Shown piece after piece: positions 5,047 to 63,021 of a stretch of 64,000 bases of DNA (position 1 is the stretch's first letter; every line of letters starts with the position of its first letter). This DNA is from Mytilus trossulus (taxonomy: Eukaryota), in NCBI RefSeq assembly GCF_036588685.1, contig NC_086386.1:61070001-61134000 (forward strand), given 5' to 3'. The notes beneath the pieces are model-generated. The model searched no databases. It was not told where the DNA came from and saw only the letters and a program-made list of their open reading frames with translations. Made by a program: the position numbers and the translations under genes.

Positions 5047-5082
5047 GACATGTAGCTGACGACCGCTAGTTTGCCACACAAC

Positions 5083-5120
5083 GGCCCTTTTAAGGGCCAA
5101 CCATATTTTTCAAAAAGAAT
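5083..5120 (+). terminator. Histone mRNA 3' stem-loop plus purine-rich downstream element
   Basis: GGCCCTTTTAAGGGCC (5083-5098) is the canonical 16-nt histone stem-loop, preceded by CACAAC and followed by AACCA. AAAAAGAA at ~5112-5119 is HDE-like. Confidence 0.9.
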
Positions 5121-5191
5121 TTAGATTTTGTTACATCAGTTCGTATAACCTAATAATTACAAGTTAAAAACAACGCCTAAAAAGAAAAAAG

Positions 5192-12551: not shown

Positions 12552-14556
12552 ATGTTGTTAGGTTTCTTCTACCTGTCTGTTCTTATTGTATGTGGAGAAA
12601 TAAACATGACTATAGAATCAGAGTTGGGTATGTACATTGCATACGTTTAGTTTATGCTTTAAAAAAAAATTATAATGTGGAAAAATAATCTTTATAAGAG
12701 AGTAAATGACAAGTTCACAAAAAAAAAAACGGATTAAAAAATTGGTAAAAAGCTCTAAGATAAAGATGGAAATTAAAATAAATCATATTAAGCAGAGGTC
12801 GCGGACGCTCGTCCTATGTTCACGACAAGGGAAAGGACGTTGACTATAGACTAAAATTAAGAATGGAAATGGGGAATGTATCAAAGAGACAACAACCCGA
12901 CCATACAGAAAAAAGCAACAGCGGAAGGTCACCAACAGGTCTTCAATGTAACGAGAAATTCCCGAACCCGGAGGTGGACTTCAGCTGGTCCCTAAACAAA
13001 TATATACTTGTTCAGTGATAATGAACGCCATAAAATATATATATATATTGGCTAGTACCCGGGGGTTCTTTGACACAAGTTTAACAATGGTCATACACAC
13101 TTTTACTTAGTTTTCAAAAAAAAGTTGGCACATAAAAAACACTTATACATACGCATGGATGTTTGCTTTGTAGATTCAACTTCTTTTAACGGAATTCAGT
13201 ATGACAACCATTAAGATTTAGTTTTAAAACATGTAAAGTTGTTGCCAAACTTACGACTGTTGACTTGTGTAAACGCTCTGCTTATTTATTTACAGCCTGT
13301 TCAGAAAAATCTAACATTGTCAACAAAGTAAAATTGTTGTGTAATGACATTGGAGCTGGTGGCAATGCGGGTGAGACTAAATTAAATATTTTCATAATCC
13401 TCTGCAGGCTTCAGGCTAGATGAAAATTTAGTTCAAAATATATTTTCTTTTATAGAACTTACATTGTTAAGCTTAAATTCAGACTACGTATGTTGTTTTG
13501 TGCTTCAATCAGTCTCGTTGTTTTCTCGTTTGAATGTTTTTAAATTATCTTTTCAATGGTGTTTTTTTTTTTGCTAACTATGCGGTCTGGGTTTTGTTCA
13601 TTGTTGAAGACATCACGCTGACATATAGTTTATATGTCATTTGGTCTCTGGTGGAGAGTTGTTTCATTGGTAATCATACCACATCTTCTTATTTTTTATA
13701 CTAGCCCTGTATAACCATGAAGGTGATCCGACGGAGAACGGCTGTCGTAAGGTAAACGTATATATGAGGCTAAAGAAAACAACCATAACCGGCACTGAAT
13801 TGTGTAGTTACAAAGAAAGAGTATCGGCTATAACAATCCTAATAAAAAAAAATTTTTTTTTTTAAATGTGAACAAGAAATCGTATTGATCAATATTTTGG
13901 CACAACAAATGACCCTCGTTAATGTCGAGCCCTGTTTAATTATGATTAAACGGTCCATTGTAAAGTTTATTTATTTAAGACAAAAAGAGTGATTATAAGT
14001 CAGACCTGGGATAAACAATATTTCATAATTTGTAATAAATTATAATGCAATTTTACAAAAAACAAAATGATTGCAATGACAAAAAGGACGATGATTTATA
14101 TATATTTTGATTACCTCTCAATACTGAAATTGCATTTTGTGTTTTTTTCCAGTGCATCCCAACACTTACACTGGTGTGTCGATTTTCACAGCTTCTGTGA
14201 GTAGGAGGAAATACGTGGTAAAAGGAAATATCGTGAGATTTGACAAAGTATGGTCAAACATCGGCAATAACTACGATCCACGCTCTGGTGTATATACAAC
14301 ACCAAAGGATGGTGCATATCATTTCTCTTGTACAGTGATGTCTCAAGGTAACAATGGCATTCGCGTCAACCTTTGGAAAAATGACGTAAAGACTGTTGCA
14401 ATTTATTCATATGGTTCTTATGGTGGAACACTGAATATGGCGCTTGACTTGAAAAGGGGGGACAGAGTGTACATTAAACAAAGTCATGTTGAAAACTACA
14501 TTTATGCTGAGCCGGAATATCATTTCAGTATGTTTTCTGGCTTTCATATTTCCTGA
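12552..14556 (+). CDS. C1q-domain-containing protein 1 (secreted globular C1q), 3 coding exons
   Basis: Exon 1 12552-12627 (signal peptide MLLGFFYLSVLIVCG; alternative in-frame ATG at 12540). Exon 2 13296-13370 (ACSEKSNIVNKVKLLCNDIGAGGNA). Exon 3 14153-14556 (gC1q: FTAS..FDKVWSNIG..YDPRSGVYT.P.DGAYHFS..L.RGDRVYI..FSMFSGF). All introns GT-AG, phase 1. AATAAA at 14616. Confidence 0.88.
12854..13032 (-). repeat. Interspersed repeat family 2 (in C1qDC-1 intron 1)
   Basis: gaatggaaatggggaatgtatcaaagagacaacaacccgacc...cagctggtccctaaacaaatatata. Reverse copies at ~34645-34815 and ~11150-11210, fragment at ~52198. Confidence 0.7.
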
Positions 14557-15458
14557 GAAACTTTATCACTTATATATCGACATACTGGTATCGTATCTAC
14601 AAAGAATATCACTGCAATAAAATATGTATACATTTACATTGTCTTTTAATGACTTAAACCTAGCCGATTTTAGAATGCATTTCCATCATGTATACCAAAA
14701 TTGGATTGCCCGGGTTAGACTATATACTTGGGTGATACCAACACTTTGACGTTTGAATTAGGTTTTAGATTTTCAATTATTTTTGCCTCTCCGATCTCAG
14801 AAGTAACATTTGTTTAATTGTGCATCTGGTGTAGAAACATGTTATTAATTGCAAGTTCGAAGATATTTTATTGTATTTGGAGACTTTAGACTATCGAATC
14901 GAAAATGATGCTAGCCAATCCAGATGCTATACAGGTATCTAAGTACTAACTCAACTGAACGAAAACACTTCTTAAACATACATTTCGAAATCAGTCAATC
15001 ATACTGTGGCTTTCTTTAATATATTTTTTTTTTCATTCGCAATATATGACAAACAAGAACAACAAAAAACATTTTTTAGACCGTATAGTAAGGTATAAAC
15101 CCCAAAATAACAATAAACCGACGAAGAAGGAACATAAAAGCTCATTAGTCGAAGATAAATTGATCCGTCATGTCAAAAAAAAGAAGAAAAAAACGACGAA
15201 AAGACTACATTCAGAAAAAGACAGCTTCAAAGAGCTAGCAACACTAACACCTTCAATAGCGGGGGTAATATAAGGTGTGTCGAAAGGGTAAGCAAATCCT
15301 GCTCCTCATTTTGGGAATCGTCGTCACGGTTCCTTGTGTAAGCACAGAATTCTACGATAAGTCTCTTTTTGAGTTGTCAATTTCGAAAGAAAAAAAAATA
15401 TAACGGGATTGACGTTACAAGAATATTTAAACATGCATATATATATATATATATATAT

Positions 15459-15797
15459 AAACGCCTAAAAAGTGTACATAACAACACCAATCACACAAAA
15501 AGGAACTATAAATGTAATTATTTATAAATATTTCGGATAACAGATATCCTTCGTCAGTCAAATTCTGATTTTAACATCAGAATTTGACTGACGAAAGAAT
15601 TTGACTGACGAAGGATATCTGTTATCCGAAATATTTATAAATAATTACATGTATAGTTCCTTTTTGTGTTATTGGTGTTGTTATGTACACTTTTTAGGCG
15701 TTTATATTATAATTTATTTTATTGTGTACATGTATCGTTACTTGTAACGATCCAGCGCCCTCGTGGGAAAAATCGTTGACTATTATTCAGACGTTTT
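15459..15797. mobile_element. Module C: short head-to-head (fold-back) non-coding Penelope-type element with hammerhead motifs
   Basis: 15459-~15570 is the inverted copy of ~15596-15705. A 17-bp local duplication agaatttgactgacgaa lies near the centre. Bounded by (TA)n on both sides. Confidence 0.75.
15600..15642 (+). ncRNA. Minimal hammerhead ribozyme-like motif (module C); mirrored on the minus strand at ~15520-15562
   Basis: CTGACGA-A-GGATA-tctgt-TATCC-GAAA-TATT: intact CUGANGA and GAAA cores with a 5-bp stem II. Stem I is weak. Confidence 0.65.
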
Positions 15798-15807
15798 ATA
15801 TATATAT

Positions 15808-16530
15808 ACCTGTTAGTCAAATGCGTTTTGTTTAAATATACTTTTTCACGCTTTTGGTCTTTTGGAAAATGTTGTTTGTGCTGTTTTTAGACCCTTCTAC
15901 AACGAAATTTGTTTGACATGCACACGTATAAAAATTGCGGTTTTTATCCAACGCAGTCATAGGTTTGAACGTAGTTTTCAATTTAGACTCGTTTATATTT
16001 TTTGTTTGGGCATGTAACATATTTTCCCTCCGGTTTATATGATCCGTTCATCCTATATATTGACTCTTAAAATTCAAGAGTTAATCTAAAAATGAGGGTA
16101 CTTTCTCTAAAAATTGAGGGTACTTTTTATATGGCCTTCCAAATACCGTTTCGATCCCTAACATCACTGAAGAGACATTTATTGTCGAAATCCGGATATG
16201 GTGTACTTAAGAAATATTGACACCGAATGTTTGTGGCACAACATCCTGTCCACAAGTTAACAATTTTTTTTTTTCTGTGACGTATCAATTTTATTTGGCA
16301 GTCGTCAATGGCAGTCAGCAGGGTTAAAGAACATCAGTTGTTCGACCTGTTAGTCAAATGCGTTTTGTTTAAATATACTTTTTCACGCTTTTGGTCTTTT
16401 GGAAAATGTTGTTTGTGCTGTTTTTAGACCCTTCTACAACGAAATTTGTTTGACATGCACACGTATAAAAATTGCGGTTTTTATCCAACGCAGTCATAGG
16501 TTTGAACGTAGTTTTCAATTTAGACTCGTT
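15808..16530 (+). mobile_element. Module A (left): hammerhead-bearing partial tandem (retrozyme / non-autonomous PLE), period 537 bp
   Basis: ~185-bp direct terminal repeat (15808-15992 and 16345-16530) around an internal segment containing the hammerhead. (TA)n on both sides. Confidence 0.8.
16161..16204 (+). ncRNA. Type I minimal hammerhead ribozyme (module A left)
   Basis: ACATCA-CTGAAGA-GACA-tttat-TGTC-GAAA-TCCGGA-TA-TGGTGT: stem I, core, stem II, palindromic stem III (ATCCGGAT), AUA cleavage triplet. Confidence 0.85.
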
Positions 16531-16552
16531 TATATATATATATATATATATA

Positions 16553-16620
16553 ACCATAAATTTGCGAAAGCAAATTTACAGATCTAACATTGTTGGTTTG
16601 ATGTTTAGACGAGTTGTATT
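16553..16620 (+). repeat. Module B 3' fragment
   Basis: aaatttgcgaaagcaaatttacagatctaacattgttggtttgatgtttagacgagttg is the reverse complement of 20726-20790. Flanked by (TA)n. Confidence 0.8.
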
Positions 16621-16801
16621 TATATATATATATATATAGTGTCTAAAAATAGCAACAATCAACATTCAATCTATATAGGTGTGGATCAGTTTGTAAATAA
16701 ACTGATGCAGTTACTAAATTGAATTATATAAGTGTCTAAGAATGTAACTTTAACACACTTATGAGTGTTATAAAATTAGGTGTTATATTTTATATATTAT
16801 T

Positions 16802-16842
16802 CACGCAATATTTCGCTAAACAAATTAGCTTCATCGGGCGTG
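16802..16842 (-). ncRNA. Hammerhead-like motif in PLE 3' UTR (left arm)
   Basis: Mirror image of 19251-19291. Confidence 0.6.
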
Positions 16843-17028
16843 TGCATCTATCAAGGTGAAATCGGATGCATGACAAAAAATATCTTTGTAGCTTGAGCTA
16901 CACAAAAGTTTAACATATTGATTAATGATCTGTATAAAACATTTTTTTGCCGTTTATTGTACATAAACATTTTTTTCAAAAATTTAAACAAATAGTTGTT
17001 TTAGTTAAATAGAAGTAAAATTGATGAG

Positions 17029-17961
17029 TTATTCCTTTGCTTTCGGGTAGAACTGTTTTTCATCCCTCTCATTAAGTCCATCAGGTTCAAGAGTACGTAG
17101 CTGATGCATCCAGAACCTTTCTCTCTTTTTCCTCATTTCTGAGTCCCAATTTTGGTTTACCTCAATTATTTGAAAGGTGATATTTTCAAAGGTATGTCCT
17201 GTTCTTAAGAGGTGTCTCGTAATTGGACAGTTTCTTCCTTTTGTATAAAACGACCGATGATTGTTTAGTCTGATGTTAAATGTGGTTTCTGTTTCACCAA
17301 CATATTGCAGCTTGCAAGTTCCACAAGTAAGAATATAAATACTATTTTCCGTTTTGCAATTAGATGTAACATAGATGTTGTATCGCTGCTTTGTTACTGT
17401 GCTGCTGAAAGAGTGGTCAGTGTTGGCGGCTTTACAGCACTTACAGTTCCTTCTACCGCATTGTTTGTAACACCCAAATTTTGAAGTTTCTTGTTTCTTT
17501 ACTTTTGATGTCACAAGTATGTCTTTGAGATTTTTGGGTCTGCGATAGGCAATAAGAGGAGGTGATGGAAAAATTTCTTTTAAGGACGAGTCATTTTCGA
17601 TTAGACGCCAGTGCTTTCGGATAAAAGATGAAATATTTGTCAAATCGGGATGGAATGTTACAACAAACGGAATTCTATCTGCACGGGTCGCCTTATTTTT
17701 GTATTCCATGAGGCTAGCTCGATCTTTTTCTTTAGCTTTATCAAAAGCGTCTGTGATGTTTTTGGTTTTATATCCTCTTGATTTCAGCTGTGTTTTTAGT
17801 TGTCCCAAACGATAGTTGAGTTTGGATTCAGAGGAGCAAATTCGCTTTAGTCTGATGGCTTGACTGTAAGGTATACTCCTGGAGCAGTGTTTCGGATGAA
17901 AACTTTTTGGAGAAAGGAACTGGTGTTTATCAGTTTTCTTTGTGTGGAGGTCAGTTGTCAT
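17029..17961 (-). CDS. PLE polyprotein C-terminal part: RT thumb, Cys-rich linker, GIY-YIG endonuclease (left copy)
   Basis: S.HP.H..RSIPYSQA.R..RIC thumb motif, CGRRNCKCC linker, IYILTCGTCKLQYVGET..RLNNH GIY-YIG, E.FW..L.T..P.GLN. The frame continues upstream through IKFT..FLD (RT motifs 6-7) to the palindrome centre. Confidence 0.88.
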   Translation of the reverse strand: MTTDLHTKKTDKHQFLSPKSFHPKHCSRSIPYSQAIRLKRICSSESKLNYRLGQLKTQLKSRGYKTKNITDAFDKAKEKDRASLMEYKNKATRADRIPFVVTFHPDLTNISSFIRKHWRLIENDSSLKEIFPSPPLIAYRRPKNLKDILVTSKVKKQETSKFGCYKQCGRRNCKCCKAANTDHSFSSTVTKQRYNIYVTSNCKTENSIYILTCGTCKLQYVGETETTFNIRLNNHRSFYTKGRNCPITRHLLRTGHTFENITFQIIEVNQNWDSEMRKKRERFWMHQLRTLEPDGLNERDEKQFYPKAKE

Positions 17962-18132
17962 GATCCCGTTTTTTACAAATGTGGTGGTGTCGAGAAAAGC
18001 AATTTTCTCGCTTGAAAATTCAGATGTAAATTTAATTAAATTTAATTTAAATACTCAATTAAATTTACATCTGAATTTTCAAGCGAGAAAATTGCTTTTC
18101 TCGACACCACCACATTTGTAAAAAACGGGATC

Positions 18133-19065
18133 ATGACAACTGACCTCCACACAAAGAAAACTGATAAACACCAGTTCCTTTCTCCAAAAAGTTGTCATCC
18201 GAAACACTGCTCCAGGAGTATACCTTACAGTCAAGCCATCAGACTAAAGCGAATTTACTCCTCTGAATCCAAACTCAACTATCGTTTGGGACAACTAAAA
18301 ACACAGCTGAAATCAAGAGGATATAAAACCAAAAACATCACAGACGCTTTTGATAAAGCTAAAGAAAAAGATCGAGCTAGCCTCATGGAATACAAAAATA
18401 AGGCGACCCGTGCAGATAGAATTCCGTTTGTTGTAACATTCCATCCCGATTTGACAAATATTTCATCTTCTATCCGAAAGCACTGGCGTCTAATCGAAAA
18501 TGACTCGTCCTTAAAAGAAATTTTTCCATCACCTCCTCTTATTGCCTATCGCAGACCCAAAAATCTCAAAGACATACTTGTGACATCAAAAGTAAAGAAA
18601 CAAGAAACTTCAAAATTTGGGTGTTACAAACAATGCGGTAGAAGGAACTGTAAGTGCTGTAAAGCCGCCAACACTGACCACTCTTTCAGCAGCACAGTAA
18701 CAAAGCAGCGATACAACATCTATGTTACATCTAATTGCAAAACGGAAAATAGTATTTATATTCTTACTTGTGGAACTTGCAAGCTGCAATATGTTGGTGA
18801 AACAGAAACCACATTTAACATCAGACTAAACAATCATCGGTCGTTTTATACAAAAGGAAGAAACTGTCCAATTACGAGACACCTCTTAAGAACAGGACAT
18901 ACCTTTGAAAATATCACCTTTCAAATAATTGAGGTAAACCAAAATTGGGACTCAGAAATGAGGAAAAAGAGAGAAAGGTTCTGGATGCATCAGCTACGTA
19001 CTCTTGAACCTGATGGACTTAATGAGAGGGATGAAAAACAGTTCTACCCGAAAGCAAAGGAATAA
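18133..19065 (+). CDS. PLE polyprotein C-terminal part: RT thumb, Cys-rich linker, GIY-YIG endonuclease (right copy)
   Basis: Same as the left copy except for 3 aa differences (F/C, C/Y, F/S). The RT catalytic core is absent because of 5' truncation. Confidence 0.88.
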   Translation: MTTDLHTKKTDKHQFLSPKSCHPKHCSRSIPYSQAIRLKRIYSSESKLNYRLGQLKTQLKSRGYKTKNITDAFDKAKEKDRASLMEYKNKATRADRIPFVVTFHPDLTNISSSIRKHWRLIENDSSLKEIFPSPPLIAYRRPKNLKDILVTSKVKKQETSKFGCYKQCGRRNCKCCKAANTDHSFSSTVTKQRYNIYVTSNCKTENSIYILTCGTCKLQYVGETETTFNIRLNNHRSFYTKGRNCPITRHLLRTGHTFENITFQIIEVNQNWDSEMRKKRERFWMHQLRTLEPDGLNERDEKQFYPKAKE

Positions 19066-19250
19066 CTCATCAATTTTACTTCTATTTAACTAAAACAACT
19101 ATTTGTTTAAATTTTTGAAAAAAATGTTTATGTACAATAAACGGCAAAAAAATGTTTATTCAGATCATTAATCAATATGTTAAACTTTTGTGTAGCTCAA
19201 GCTACAAAGATATTTTTTGTCATGCATCCGATTTCACCTTGATAGATGCA

Positions 19251-19291
19251 CACGCCCGATGAAGCTAATTTGTTTAGCGAAATATTGCGTG
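19251..19291 (+). ncRNA. Hammerhead-like motif in PLE 3' UTR (right arm), U4C core variant
   Basis: CACGC-CCGATGA-A-GCTAA-tttgt-TTAGC-GAAA-TATT-GCGTG: perfect 5-bp stems I and II, minimal palindromic stem III, CCGAUGA in place of CUGAUGA. Confidence 0.62.
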
Positions 19292-19746
19292 AATAATATA
19301 TAAAATATAACACCTAATTTTATAACACTCATAAGTGTGTTAAAGTTACATTCTTAGACACTTATATATATATATATATATATATATACGAGTCTAAATT
19401 GAAAACTACGTTCAAACCTATGATTGCGTTGGATAAAAACCGCAATTTTTATACGTGTGCATGTTAAACAAATTTCGTTGTAGAAGGGTCTAAAAACAGC
19501 ACAAACAACATTTTCCAAAAGACCAAAAAAGTGAAAAAGTATATTTCAACAAAACGTATTTGACTAACAGGTCGAACAACTGATGTTCTTGAACCCTGCT
19601 GACTGCCATTGGCGATTGCCAAATAAAATTGATCACAAGATGTAACAAAATGGATCTTAAAATAAATCTAATACTAAACAGAAAAACTTTTTAAACTTGT
19701 GGCCGCGATGTTATGCCACAAACATACGGTGTCAATATATCTTAGT

Positions 19747-19790
19747 ACACCAGATCCGGATTTCGACAATAAATGTCTCTTCAGTGATGA
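19747..19790 (-). ncRNA. Type I minimal hammerhead ribozyme (module A right, unit 1)
   Basis: Reverse complement reads CATCA-CTGAAGA-GACA-tttat-TGTC-GAAA-TCCGGA-TC-TGGTG (AUC triplet). Confidence 0.85.
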
Positions 19791-20316
19791 TAGGGATCGA
19801 AACGGTATTTGGAAGGCCATATTAAGAGTATCCTCATTTTAAGAAAAAGTACCCTAATTTTTAGATAAACTCTTGAATTTAAAGAGTCAATATAGGATGA
19901 ACGGATCATATAAACCGGAGGGAAAATATGATACAAAGCCCAAACAAAAAAATATAAACGAGTCTAAATTGAAAACTACGTTCAAACCTATGATAGCGTT
20001 GGATAAAAACCGCAATTTTTATACGTGTGCATGTTAAACAAATTTCGTTGTAGAAGGGTCTAAAAACAGCACAAACAACATTTTCCAAAAGACCAAAAAA
20101 GTGAAAAAGTATATTTCAACAAAACGTATTTGACTAACAGGTCGAACAACTGATGTTCTTGAACCCTGCTGACTGCCATTGGCGATTGCCAAATAAAATT
20201 GATCACAAGATGTAACAAAATGGATCTTAAAATAAATTTAATACTAAACAGAAAAACTTTTTAAACTTGTGGCCGCGATGTTATGCCACAAACATACGGT
20301 GTCAATATATTTTAGT

Positions 20317-20360
20317 ACACCAGATCCGGATTTCGACAATAAATGTCTCTTCAGTGATGT
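20317..20360 (-). ncRNA. Type I minimal hammerhead ribozyme (module A right, unit 2)
   Basis: Same motif as 19747-19790, 570 bp away. Confidence 0.85.
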
Positions 20361-20725
20361 TAGGGATCGAAACGGTATTTGGAAGGCCATATTAAGAGTA
20401 TCCTCATTTTAAGAAAAAGTACCCTAATTTTTAGATAAACTCTTGAATTTAAAGAGTCAATATAGGATGAACGGATCATATAAACCGGAGGGAAAATATG
20501 ATACAAAGCCCAAACAAAAAAATATAAACGAGTCTAAATTGAAAACTACGTTCAAACCTATGATTGCGTTGGCTAAAAACCGCAATTTTTATACGTGTGT
20601 ATGTTCAACAAATTTCGTTGTAGAATGGTCTAAAAACAGCACAAACAACATTTCCCATAAGGCCAAAAAAGTGAAAAAGTATATTTCAACAAAACGCATC
20701 TGACTAACAGGTCATATATATATAT

Positions 20726-21547
20726 AACTCGTCTAAACATCAACCCAACAATGTTAGATCTGTAAATTTGCTTTCGCAAATTTTTGGTTCTTCTCTCGCC
20801 GGGATTCGAACCCATGCTACTGTGATATCGTGACACCAAATCGCCTGCACTGCAGTCGTCCCGCTAGACCACATGACCACCTGGGCTCTAAAAAAAGAGC
20901 TTTCGCTGGCCATGTGTTACCTTTCCACGTCAGTTTTAATCTAGCGGCGTACTACAGTACATGATATATAAGGCATGAAGATGTTATTGTTACAGATCAA
21001 CTAAATTATCCATAGTAAAGGATCCTACAAATTATTGTAAGATACAGTCACAGAAAATAATTATATTCATAAGTACGTCTGAGTCAGTGACAACCCTACA
21101 ACAGATGTATCCATCGGATCGCCATTAATGATGGTTATACATGGCTGTGTACATAATGTATATACAACTCGTCTAAACATCAACCCAACAATGTTAGATC
21201 TGTAAATTTGCTTTCGCAAATTTTTTGTTCTTCCCTCGCCGGGATTCGAACCCATGCTACTGTGATATCGTGACACCAAATCGCCTGCACTGCAGCCGTC
21301 CCGCTAGACCACACGACCACCTGGGCTCTCAAAAAAAGAGCTGTCGCTGGCCATGTGTTACCTTTCCACGTCAGTTTTAATCAAGCGGCGTACTACAGTA
21401 CTTGCTATATAAGGCATGAAGATGTTATTGTTACAGATCAGCTAAATTATCTATAGTAAAGGATCCTACAAATTAATGTAAGATACAGTCACAGAAAATA
21501 ATTATATTCATAAGTACGTCTGAGTCAGTGACAACCCTACAACAGAT
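20726..21547 (-). mobile_element. Module B: 440-bp tandem (~1.9 units) with an internal tRNA-like Pol III promoter
   Basis: aactcgtctaaacatc at 20726 and 21166. Minus-strand A box (TGGTC(A/G)TGTGG) and B box (GGTTCGAATCCC) within 20791-20886 and 21231-21326. A T7 run lies just upstream of each head. (TA)n on both sides. Confidence 0.8.
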
Positions 21548-22168
21548 ATATATATATATATATGTTTGTTGTCATTTGTAATCATTTAGATGCAGCTCCC
21601 TTGTAACATTTTAATGACACTAACAATCGTATTCGGTTTCTAAAAACTTATTATGTTAAAGAATACTTCGGTTGATGATCTTTGTGCCATACAAAAAGTT
21701 GTACCAACCTCGACTTCGTCTCGGATAACATTTATATATTTAGATGCAGTCTACCAAAACACACTAAACTATCGACAAATAGTTTATTCTATGTAAAACA
21801 CAGTTTAATATAAAAATAAGGAGAATTTTGAATAACCAAATCTGAAAATGAATTAGACAAAATACATAAATCTAAAGCTGAAAACCGAAAAAGCTTGCTT
21901 AACAAGTTGGACAACTATTTCTCTAAACAGCACCAATCTTTATTAAAAGTCGGTCAATTTTGAAGCTGTGTTTACTTAAAAGTGAAACTATTGTACCTAT
22001 CAATACAATAGCATGATATATACATACAAGAGGTATACTATTTCAGTATGATATTACAAGGGACACGGTAACATATTTAAGATCAGAACATGCATAAAGT
22101 ATACACTGCTAGGACAAACATTAAACACACTCGGAAGAAACGATAGATTAATTTCTAAAGAGGACAGT

Positions 22169-23443
22169 ATGCCTCTTTTCTTCTTCGTGTCTGTTCTGAT
22201 TTGGTGTGGAGAAATATGTATGACGCAATGTTCCAGTTGGGGTATGTAAAATAGAATATACAACTATATTATCATGATCCTTGTCCAATCAGAAGAAGGA
22301 TTTGCAAAATTTGGTCGTTTTTTACGCCACAATATTTTCTCGTATTAAAAACAAACGCATGTGCATATCTAGCTTTTAAAAGAGTAAGAATATCCAGCCT
22401 GTTAAAAAAAAGCGAATCGAGTTATATATACAACACCATCATGACATGCATGATCAAAATAAAACTTGCCACTCTGGTTCACTGGTTAACATATTAAGAA
22501 TATCTTATATGCATACACCCCCTTTTCAAAAATTCGCACCTGGAGTGATAGAACTAATTTTAATCAGATTAATTACTACAGTGTATCGACGATAAATTGT
22601 GCCAATGATAGTAAATTGATTACAATGGTAAAAAAAATCTTCACTAGCACTGTCGGAACATTGAAATTACAGCTGCAACATACCAGTCATGTGCAACTTC
22701 TTACAATATCTTACCATATCATTTATGTTCCGATACACATTTTAATATGCACCCACCATTCCATATAGCATCGTCCCTTTGTGCCTCCTGCAGTTCAGCT
22801 AAATATATAGTTAGCCTACTTTCTAGGGGTGTGTCAGAGACGAAGGTTTTATAAATACTCCTGTATATTATAATACATGAAAACTGTTGTTTCTTTTTTG
22901 TGTTTGTAACTATGTTTACTGTTGTTTTATTTTATATTTGTACAAGAATAATATTATAATGATATCATAGCATGCTCCTTGTGACTCACAAGTTGTGAGC
23001 CCAGTTTATGGAAATAAAGCATATTCTTCTTCTTTTCTATTGATTTTTTAGGTGCGTCGGGTTTCTCAGCTTCTATAAGTAAAAGTAAACACGTGGTCAG
23101 AGGAGGCATCATAAGATTTGACAAAGTATGGAGCAACATAGGGAACAATTTTGATCAATATTCTAGTGTGTATACAGCTCCAAGAAATGGCGCATACCAT
23201 TTCTCATGTACCGTAATGTCTCATAGAAACAATGCTATTCGAGTCAATCTGTGGAAAAATCACTCAAAGACTGTTGCAGTTTACTCGAATAGTCACTATG
23301 GTGGTACACTCAATATGGTACTTGACCTAAAGAGAGGAGACAGGGTGTACATTAAACAAGGTCATGTTGAAAACTACATATATGCTGAACCTGATTATCA
23401 TTTCAGTATGTTTTCTGGCTTTCTCATTCAAGTTCATGAGTAA
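22169..23443 (+). CDS. C1q-domain-containing protein 2 (secreted globular C1q), 2 recognisable coding exons
   Basis: Exon 1 22169-22241 (MPLFFFVSVLIWCGEICMTQCSSW, paralogous to gene 1 exon 1, GTATGT donor). Exon 2 23052-23443 (gC1q, closely similar to gene 1). The phase-1 join keeps the frame. AATAAA at 23488. Confidence 0.87.
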
Positions 23444-62565: not shown

Positions 62566-63021
62566 ACAAGAATGTGTCCACAGTACACGGATGCCCCACT
62601 CGCACTATCATTTTCTATGTTTAGTGGACAGTGAAATTGATATAAATTCTCAAATTTGGCATTAAAATTAGAATGATCTTATCAAGGGAACATGTATACT
62701 AAGTTTCAAGTTGATTGGACTTCTACTTTATCAAAAACTACCTTGACCAAAAACTTTAACCTGAAATTTGCACTATCATTTTCTATGTTTAGTGAACCGT
62801 AAAATTGGGGTAAAAACTCTAATTTGGCATTTAAATTAGAAAGATCAAATCATAGGGCACATGTATACTAAGTTTCAAGTTGATTGGACTTCAACTTCAT
62901 CAAAAACTACCTTGACCAAAAACTTTAACCTGAAGCAGGACAGACGGACGAACTAACAGATGAACAGACGCACAGACCAGAAAACATAATGCCCCTCTAC
63001 TATCGTAGGAGGGGCATAAAA
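62566..63021 (+). mobile_element. Helentron/HINE (DINE-1/pearl-like) element with two 168-bp core repeats
   Basis: gcactatcattttctatg at 62602 and 62770, GACA/GACG microsatellite at ~62938-62978, terminal hairpin atgcccctctactatcgtaggaggggcat. Related decayed copy at ~27640-27985. Confidence 0.78.

What the first reader, a model, noticed from the sequence alone, without database searches (positions are those of the whole stretch)
15808..20713. Module A: retrozyme-like tandem with a dimer-type hammerhead and fixed ends
Seen: two insertions in opposite orientation from different subfamilies (537 vs 570 bp period, different internal segment) start and stop within 1-2 nt of the same positions, giving 1.35 and 2.3 units. 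There is one hammerhead per unit, with palindromic stem III ATCCGGAT. Established: minimal type I hammerheads cleave as dimers, and tandem hammerhead repeats in metazoans can yield monomeric circular RNAs. Inference: the array could release a 570-nt monomer or circle, and the fixed ~185-bp terminal redundancy acts as a pseudo-LTR.
Basis: partly seen in the sequence, partly recalled or inferred. Interest (0 to 1): 0.72.

Follow-up and report, generated by a model that had tools for sequence, protein, structure and literature searches.

The report
Mussel retrozyme with Penelope-type insertion ends
These are two copies of an abundant ~570-base non-coding repeat that carries a hammerhead self-cutting RNA motif; the family is transcribed, many reads stop at the predicted cut, and its copies share one fixed end and a TA-repeat target with neighbouring Penelope-like jumping genes, which likely copy it, so it is a new member of a known kind that points to the probable copying enzyme.

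Summary
The two arrays and three type I hammerheads are real. They belong to a family with at least 3,600 hammerhead copies in this genome (three subfamilies, periods about 550, 570 and 573), in arrays of up to 15 units. 'Fixed ends' is half wrong. The 3' end is fixed at TTAGACTCGT|(TA)n (1,859 exact matches), but 5' ends are spread round the unit (2 of 120 at the window's start point). The 185-bp redundancy is therefore 5' truncation, and the 537 period is a private deletion. Between the arrays lies a head-to-head palindrome of a Neptune/Nematis-type Penelope-like element (PLE). Four such PLE families and module A share paired TAGAC/TAGGC end sites 89-96 nt apart and the (TA)n target; a Naiad family and the ~350-bp retrozymes do not. 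In two stranded RNA runs the family is expressed in sense, and about 35-40% of reads over the ribozyme stop within about 2 nt of the predicted cut (family-level, from binned depth). A circle is not shown. Metazoan retrozymes and a PLE driver are in print, and this scan noted the 551-bp subfamily earlier (e1-9257930). Verdict: new member of a known kind.

The parts
15808..16529 (+). Module A left copy: 1.35 units, ~573-bp (AUA) subfamily with a private 39-bp deletion near 16284 (period 537); 5'-truncated, 3' end at TTAGACTCGT|(TA)n
16161..16204 (+). Type I hammerhead: stem I 16161-66/16199-204, core CUGAAGA 16167-73, stem II 16174-86, GAAA 16187-90, palindromic helix III; predicted cut 16198|16199 after AUA
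   Evidence: RNA depth step at 16198-16200 in X21 and X22
19388..20713 (-). Module A right copy: 2.33 units of 570 bp (AUC subfamily); its first ~150-188 nt are more diverged than the rest, so it is likely a composite
20317..20360 (-). Hammerhead of unit 1 (core starts 20354; predicted cut 20323|20322 after AUC)
19747..19790 (-). Hammerhead of unit 2 (core starts 19784; predicted cut 19753|19752; outer stem I pair lost)
19753..20322 (-). Predicted 570-nt cut-to-cut monomer; folding as a circle no better than shuffles; no ORF over 48 aa
16520..16535 (+). Main 3' end site TTAGACTCGT plus TATAT microhomology (also 15983; 19388, 19958, 20528 on the minus strand)
16424..16433 (+). Weak upstream end site TTAGACCCTT, 96 nt before the main site; 23 of 26 nt match a PLE end site (also 15887; 19484, 20054 minus)
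16639..18040 (-). Left arm of a 5'-truncated Neptune/Nematis-type PLE palindrome; ends at the family's downstream end site (94-nt tail 16639-16730); minimal hammerhead at 16837
18046..19363 (+). Right arm of the PLE palindrome: 339-aa frame with GIY-YIG (18046-19065), minimal hammerhead at 19256, ends at upstream site CTTAGACACTT|(TA)n
15797..15808 (.). (TA)n target tract at the left 5' junction; further tracts at 16531-16552, 16621-16638, 19363-19388, 20715-20726
16552..16620 (+). Short 5'-truncated copy of the 441-bp 'module B' repeat inserted in the same (TA)n tract

Best explanation
Module A is a non-coding, hammerhead-bearing tandem repeat family (a non-LTR retrozyme) whose copies share a fixed 3' end and (TA)n target with Neptune/Nematis-type Penelope-like elements, and it is likely copied in trans by their reverse transcriptase-endonuclease, probably from an RNA circle. 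Steps: (1) Arrays are transcribed on the hammerhead strand (shown at family level, if the libraries have the usual strandedness). (2) The RNA is cut after AUA/AUC (supported by read ends; probably as a dimer through the palindromic helix III, inferred). (3) Cut monomers or dimers are likely ligated into circles, as published for the ~350-nt mussel family (not shown here, about 55%). (4) The PLE protein would nick (TA)n and start copying inside the RNA at TTAGACTCGT|UUAUAU, with a short TA match to the primer (inferred from 1,859 junction matches). (5) It runs on for a variable distance, through any number of units, and stops at random, giving a fixed 3' end, a variable 5' end and intact internal hammerheads (anatomy shown, enzymology inferred). 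(6) Every insertion leaves (TA)n next to it, so later insertions nest there. The window's near-symmetric cluster is a nest of independent insertions around one PLE palindrome, and the shared 5' start is mostly coincidence.
For: Copy number, and arrays up to 15 units on many chromosomes. Near-identical young arrays (0-2 differences) on different chromosomes. 3' end fixed in 87 of 120 elements and followed by (TA)n in 80 of 87; 5' ends roughly uniform; 3 of 120 near the ribozyme cut and 6 distinct genome-wide for one subfamily pattern. Four C-terminal GIY-YIG PLE families each carry two TAGAC/TAGGC+TA sites 89-96 nt apart; the window's family uses them 14:14 in 30 loci. Module A has two sites 96 nt apart, the upstream one used 9 times against 1 and 1 at control positions (5 of 5 checked are true forward ends). 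The window's PLE family has intact 959-codon RT+GIY-YIG frames in tandem. RNA: sense:antisense about 100:1 in X21 and X22, 174 and 277 reads per million, coverage over the whole unit and the unit-to-unit joint. Depth drops at 16198-16200 and rises at 16046-47, one read length upstream. Alternating unit lengths in 5 arrays fit dimeric templates.
Against: No extended homology between module A and any of the PLE end regions tested: the best match is 23 of 26 nt (4 of 1,000 shuffles as good), and it pairs module A's upstream site with the PLE's downstream site. The exact partner family is not identified. The tool's own table of begin/end places did not flag the cut site; the step is computed from 18-nt bins. 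About 60% of reads run through the site, and X23 and X24 show little or no step. Reads come from coded organism B and mostly from the AUA subfamily, so nothing is shown for this locus. Cutting may have happened during library preparation. Reads across the joint do not separate circles from linear multimers. The monomer folds no better than shuffles (-105.6 against -102.6 +/- 5.9), unlike the 'highly self-paired' circles of PMC7229834. In the one PLE studied in vitro, uncut RNA was the main template and priming needed no homology (PMC11167929). 5' ends show a mild excess at unit positions 1-29 (17 of 120, p=3e-4 uncorrected, partly from query phase).
Confidence: 0.72

Rival explanations
1. Same family and same PLE driver, but the template is linear uncut multimeric RNA from long arrays. 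Hammerhead cutting is a side reaction or a brake, and circles are minor or absent. This overlaps with the best explanation except for step 3.
For: About 60% of reads span the cut. Long source arrays exist (15 units). Poseidon PLE uses unprocessed RNA in vitro (PMC11167929). The monomer is not unusually structured.
Against: Arrays of 11-14 near-identical units, identical between chromosomes, and ABAB patterns are simplest by rolling on a circle. Sense depth barely falls at the genomic 3' end (252 to 223 in X21, 509 to 481 in X22). A ~352-bp tandem family in this genome has nearly the same ribozyme, and the published mussel family of that size is mostly circular (PMC7229834).
Confidence: 0.3
2. 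The driver is a Naiad (N-terminal endonuclease) or another PLE clade, as earlier scan notes propose for the ~350-390-bp mussel retrozymes.
For: Naiads are reported to favour (TA)n (PMC8557442). A 1,056-aa Naiad family with many intact frames is present.
Against: Seven Naiad frames in 5 loci show no TAGAC end site, no (TA)5 within 1.5 kb after the ORF and no match to module A. The ~350-bp families end in (TA)n in 0 of 17 cases against 80 of 87 for module A. Only one Naiad family, and only the region after its ORF, was tested.
Confidence: 0.08
3. A satellite born from a PLE terminal repeat and amplified locally by unequal crossing-over, with no RNA step of its own.
For: Proposed as one route in bioRxiv 10.64898/2026.07.22.740005. 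Higher-order patterns in some arrays could also arise this way.
Against: Copies are dispersed with one precise 3' junction, random 5' truncation, inverted 5' pieces (L041, L056) and identical young arrays on different chromosomes.
Confidence: 0.04
4. One reading: an element with two defined ends and a fixed ~185-bp pseudo-LTR, or one large palindromic element spanning 15808-20713.
For: Both window copies start within 1 nt of the same unit position, and they flank a palindrome.
Against: 2 of 120 other elements start there. The copies are 88-90% identical while the PLE arms are 99.4%. The outer flanks differ, and the right copy's first ~188 nt are of a different age (9 of 188 against 3 of 382 differences, p=0.003).
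Confidence: 0.03

Closest known systems
Mytilus galloprovincialis non-LTR retrozymes (Cervera and de la Pena 2020, PMC7229834; parts 2-4 of 6 read; supplement too large to read)
   Same: Non-coding tandem repeats with one type I hammerhead per unit, low GC, thousands of copies, transcribed. A ~352-bp tandem family in this genome has a near-identical ribozyme (37 of 42 nt).
   Different: Unit about 550-575 bp against 350-390. Little or no homology outside the ribozyme and ~30 nt after it. Ends at TTAGACTCGT|(TA)n about 370 nt after the cut, whereas the ~350-bp families stop within about 110 nt of theirs and never in (TA)n (0 of 17). Circles not shown. The published sequences could not be compared directly.
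Neptune/Nematis-type EN+ Penelope-like elements (features from PMC8557442, passages read)
   Same: Fixed 3' end, 5' truncation, partial tandems, inverted 5' pieces, microsatellite target, hammerhead in the repeat, two alternative ends ('tail').
   Different: No ORF. Canonical rather than minimal hammerhead. No pseudo-LTR homology beyond 26 nt. Tail 94-96 nt rather than the 30-40 bp described.
Xenopus retrozymes as non-autonomous PLE derivatives (Li, Clavereau and Pollet, bioRxiv 10.64898/2026.07.22.740005; parts 1-3 of 5 read; supplements closed)
   Same: Same general claim of PLE mobilisation; unit sizes 51-972 bp include this size.
   Different: Their link is pseudo-LTR homology and co-occurrence. 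Here the link is a short shared end signature and target site; no mollusc is named in the parts read.
Poseidon_Ac internal initiation (Frangieh et al. 2024, PMC11167929; parts 1-2 of 4 read)
   Same: Reverse transcription starts at two internal RNA sites that define the genomic tail; AT-rich target.
   Different: There, no homology to the target and no RNA-seq ends at the ribozyme cut. Here a TATAT match follows the end sites of the PLE families and module A's main site, and read ends pile up at the cut.

Membership tests
Metazoan non-LTR retrozyme | Type I hammerhead in each unit of a short tandem repeat | tested here: met
   (180 cut-to-cut units from 56 arrays)
Metazoan non-LTR retrozyme | Non-coding; dispersed in many copies | tested here: met
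   longest ATG frame 48 aa; at least 2,868 + 764 cores
Metazoan non-LTR retrozyme | Transcribed | tested here: met
   family-level sense reads in X21-X23, weak and unstranded in X24
Metazoan non-LTR retrozyme | Self-cleavage at the hammerhead | tested here: inconclusive
   depth step at 16198-16200 in 2 of 4 runs; not flagged by the tool's end table; no in vitro test
Metazoan non-LTR retrozyme | Accumulates as monomeric circular RNA | not testable with these tools
   short reads across the joint fit circles and linear multimers equally
Metazoan non-LTR retrozyme | Highly self-paired predicted circle | tested here: inconclusive
   58% paired but energy within 1 sd of 40 shuffles; one monomer only
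Metazoan non-LTR retrozyme | Target-site duplication longer than 4 bp when present | not testable with these tools
   the target is (TA)n, which hides a duplication
Minimal PLE-type hammerhead | No helix III insert, long helix II with an unpaired 5' base | tested here: not met
   module A has helix II of 4 bp and a 6-nt helix III insert; the neighbouring PLE motif does fit
Dimer-acting hammerhead | Self-complementary helix III kept through changes | tested here: met
   CCGG, CTAG, GCGC and CGCGCG variants; 764 CTAG against 42 CTGG; one founder event could explain the CTAG subfamily
Dimer-acting hammerhead | Cleaves better as a dimer than as a monomer | not testable with these tools
   needs in vitro assay
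Non-autonomous PLE derivative | PLE-type insertion anatomy (fixed 3' end, 5' truncation, partial tandem, inversions, tail) | tested here: met
Non-autonomous PLE derivative | Extended homology to an autonomous PLE's pseudo-LTR | tested here: inconclusive
   only 23 of 26 nt with the families sampled; not all PLE families were sampled
Neptune/Nematis PLE (the neighbour) | RT followed by C-terminal GIY-YIG with a CX2-5CxxC linker | tested here: met
   RVT_1 and GIY-YIG Pfam hits, linker in the printed frame; Neptune against Nematis not resolved, no reference tree
Element with fixed pseudo-LTR length | Both ends fixed among copies | tested here: not met

The most novel reading that the evidence does not exclude
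Retrozymes are modular: one hammerhead lineage in this genome rides on two different Penelope-like machines. The 550-575-bp family carries a Neptune-type TAGAC start site and is rolled off RNA circles into (TA)n, while the ~350-bp family with almost the same ribozyme uses another end and another driver. A 10-26-nt signature, not pseudo-LTR descent, is enough to hijack the enzyme.
Probability: 0.35. Interest if true: 0.7.

Novelty: new member of a known kind. Interest (0 to 1): 0.48.

Why it matters
Which enzyme copies animal retrozymes, and where it starts on the RNA, is proposed in print but not shown in the papers read here. This family supplies a precise start site, a target, young identical arrays and an intact young RT-endonuclease family in the same genome, so the question can be tested directly in vitro. 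The read pile-up at the predicted cut, if confirmed from raw reads, would be evidence from animal RNA that such a ribozyme cuts; the Poseidon study did not find this. The locus itself is an ordinary nest of insertions.

Tried and rejected
Rfam found no hammerhead family in the window at E<=1; its miRNA hits at 17963-18133 are the palindrome centre and lie below the gathering scores. Assembly artefact for the palindrome was rejected: arms differ at 5 sites outside the centre, end at different tail sites, and head-to-head pairs of this family recur on other contigs. A 5' hotspot at the window's start point and one at the ribozyme cut were both rejected. A 537-bp subfamily was rejected. An autonomous parent was looked for by tblastn in 79 loci and by blastn against the PLE end regions; none was found. 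Single-strand folding gave no common hairpin across the eight end sites, and the module A hammerhead does not fold into its active form as an isolated monomer. No tRNA gene in 15000-22500. Searches for a printed description of this family found none: retrozyme+hammerhead+Mytilus, Mytilus+hammerhead (25 of 50 listed), Mytilus+satellite DNA+Penelope+tandem repeats, retrozyme+Neptune+Penelope. Repbase and the supplements of PMC7229834 and of the 2026 preprint were not seen and may list it.
Full report
What is there. The window lies on contig C14 of a 1.3-Gb genome. Self-comparison confirms a left copy at 15808-16529(+) with period 537 and a right copy at 20713-19388(-) with period 570, 88-90% alike. 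Each unit has one type I hammerhead with stem I of 6 bp, stem II of 4 bp and the palindrome ATCCGGAT in helix III. The left triplet is AUA and the right ones are AUC. By the definitions in PMC4209133 (passages) this is the canonical metazoan form, not the minimal PLE form. Rfam did not detect it.

Family. The core occurs 2,868 times exactly (control 0), and a CTAG-loop subfamily with periods near 550 adds 764. I fetched 79 other loci: 39 from the best hits, biased to long 570-type copies, and 40 of the 42 hit clusters listed on C1 (one was already held, one was not fetched). Periods centre on 568-574. The 537 period is a 39-bp deletion seen in 1 of 96 junctions of its type, and RNA reads carry extra letters at that place.

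Ends. Of 120 elements of 70 nt or more outside the window, 87 end at unit position 178-200, and 80 of these 87 run into (TA)n. 5' ends are spread round the unit (KS p=0.21), with 2 of 120 at the window's start point and 3 of 120 near the ribozyme cut. Genome-wide there are 1,859 exact 3'-end matches (some are internal in arrays). Against that stand 16 distinct (TA)n-flanked starts at the window's start point, one being the left copy (7-13 expected if uniform), and 6 at the cut for one subfamily pattern. A mild excess at positions 1-29 remains (17 of 120). The right array's first ~188 nt differ from the later units more than those differ from each other, so it is likely two events. The 'fixed pseudo-LTR' is therefore the overlap left by 5' truncation.

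The neighbour. Positions 16639-19363 are a 99.4% head-to-head palindrome of a 5'-truncated PLE with a GIY-YIG domain and its own minimal hammerhead. The family has intact 959-codon frames with RVT_1, a cysteine linker and GIY-YIG, in 3,250-bp tandems. That is the Neptune/Nematis layout of PMC8557442 (passages). Each repeat has two TTAGACAC+TATA sites 94 nt apart. Genomic copies end at either site, 14 and 14 in 30 loci, and the window's two arms use one each. Three more C-terminal-EN families show paired TAGAC/TAGGC sites 89-96 nt apart; a fifth does not.

The link to module A. Module A has its main site and a second one 96 nt upstream. The second is used 9 times against 1 and 1 at control positions, and its context matches a PLE site at 23 of 26 nt (4 of 1,000 shuffles). 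The order of the homologous sites differs and no longer homology was found, so the partner family is unnamed. Seven frames of a 1,056-aa Naiad family show no such site after the ORF. The ~350-bp hammerhead families, one with 37 of 42 nt of the same ribozyme, end in (TA)n in 0 of 17 cases.

Ribozyme. All four amplified loop variants are self-complementary and form 8-bp duplexes of -7 to -13 kcal/mol. The double change CTAG could arise by CpG decay, but it has 764 copies while the single change CTGG has 42, almost all solitary. This favours selection for dimer pairing, with the caveat of a single founder. The left array has one ribozyme and cannot release a unit. The right array could release 20322-19753.

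RNA. Four raw runs of coded organism B (2 studies; about 6% of each of X21-X23 and 18% of X24 read) were laid on each unit type. Assuming the usual strandedness, X21 and X22 show the hammerhead strand at about 100:1 in the subfamily-specific part, at 174 and 277 reads per million; X23 has 67 and X24 has 13. Coverage spans the unit and the head-to-tail joint, and barely falls at the genomic 3' end. Depth drops from 501 to 319 (X21) and from 725 to 473 (X22) at a position computed as 16198-16200, and rises at 16046-47, one 151-nt read upstream. On the other unit, counts away from read ends jump by 214 and 325 between 20326 and 20329 in X21 and X22, but not in X23 or X24. This fits about 35-40% of reads ending at the predicted cut. 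Against it: the tool's end table did not list the site, the estimate uses bins, duplicates were not removed, cutting may be post-extraction, and the reads are family-level and mostly of the AUA subfamily. Reads through the site may come from uncut or religated RNA, so a circle is not shown.

Mechanism. The most likely path is transcription of arrays, hammerhead cutting (probably dimeric), ligation to circles (about 55%), then PLE-catalysed target-primed copying that starts internally at TTAGACTCGT on nicked (TA)n and stops at random. Arrays of 11-14 near-identical units shared between chromosomes and ABAB arrays suit rolling copying, but a linear multimer template is not excluded. Internal initiation at two sites is shown for Poseidon_Ac in PMC11167929 (parts 1-2 read).

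Known and new. Mussel retrozymes of 350-390 bp with circles, and PLEs as candidate drivers, are in PMC7229834 (parts 2-4 read; supplement unreadable). PLE derivation is argued in bioRxiv 10.64898/2026.07.22.740005 (parts 1-3 read). This family was not found in print; Repbase and supplements were not seen. Earlier notes of this scan describe a 551-bp mussel family with a fixed end (e1-9257930), which probably matches the CTAG subfamily here, and link the ~350-bp family to Naiads; the latter prompted my Naiad test. What this locus adds is the Neptune-type end signature, the (TA)n targeting and the read pile-up at the cut. Score: new member of a known kind, interest 0.48.

Noticed in passing
window 20716-21551 and 16552-16620: 441-bp tandem repeat ('module B'), matched in 24 of 39 fetched loci besides the window. 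It has two AGAC+TA end sites about 94 nt apart, both used, and no canonical hammerhead core; it looks like a second non-autonomous passenger of the same PLEs.
   Followed up: partly
window 15450-15711: Small head-to-head palindrome of another PLE family's 3' end, with minimal hammerheads on both strands and TTAGGCGTTT ends.
   Followed up: partly
window ~15750-15797: 3' end of a further repeat (TTCAGACGTTTT|(TA)n) seen in 5 other loci and resembling PLE ends in L045 and L069.
   Followed up: partly
L067 6734-7086; L045 6560-6915; L129 5444-5792: Two ~352-355-bp hammerhead tandem families, about 69% alike, probably the published mussel retrozymes; they end outside (TA)n.
   Followed up: partly
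L032, L042, L047, L102, L132, L136: Arrays with alternating unit lengths (for example 572/530, 567/547), suggesting dimeric or larger templates.
   Followed up: partly
L180, L197-L200, L203, L208: A C-terminal GIY-YIG PLE family ending in (TA)n without the TAGAC signature, with two ends 40 nt apart.
   Followed up: no
window 14128-14556 and 23018-23443: Two C1q-domain coding exons, 79% alike, flank the insertion nest.
   Followed up: no
window 5078-5122: Histone 3' UTR stem-loop above the Rfam gathering score.
   Followed up: no
L171 7552-9704: Mab-21 nucleotidyltransferase gene in two overlapping frames directly after a PLE tandem.
   Followed up: no
window 62602-62934: 169-bp two-copy tandem repeat.
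   Followed up: no
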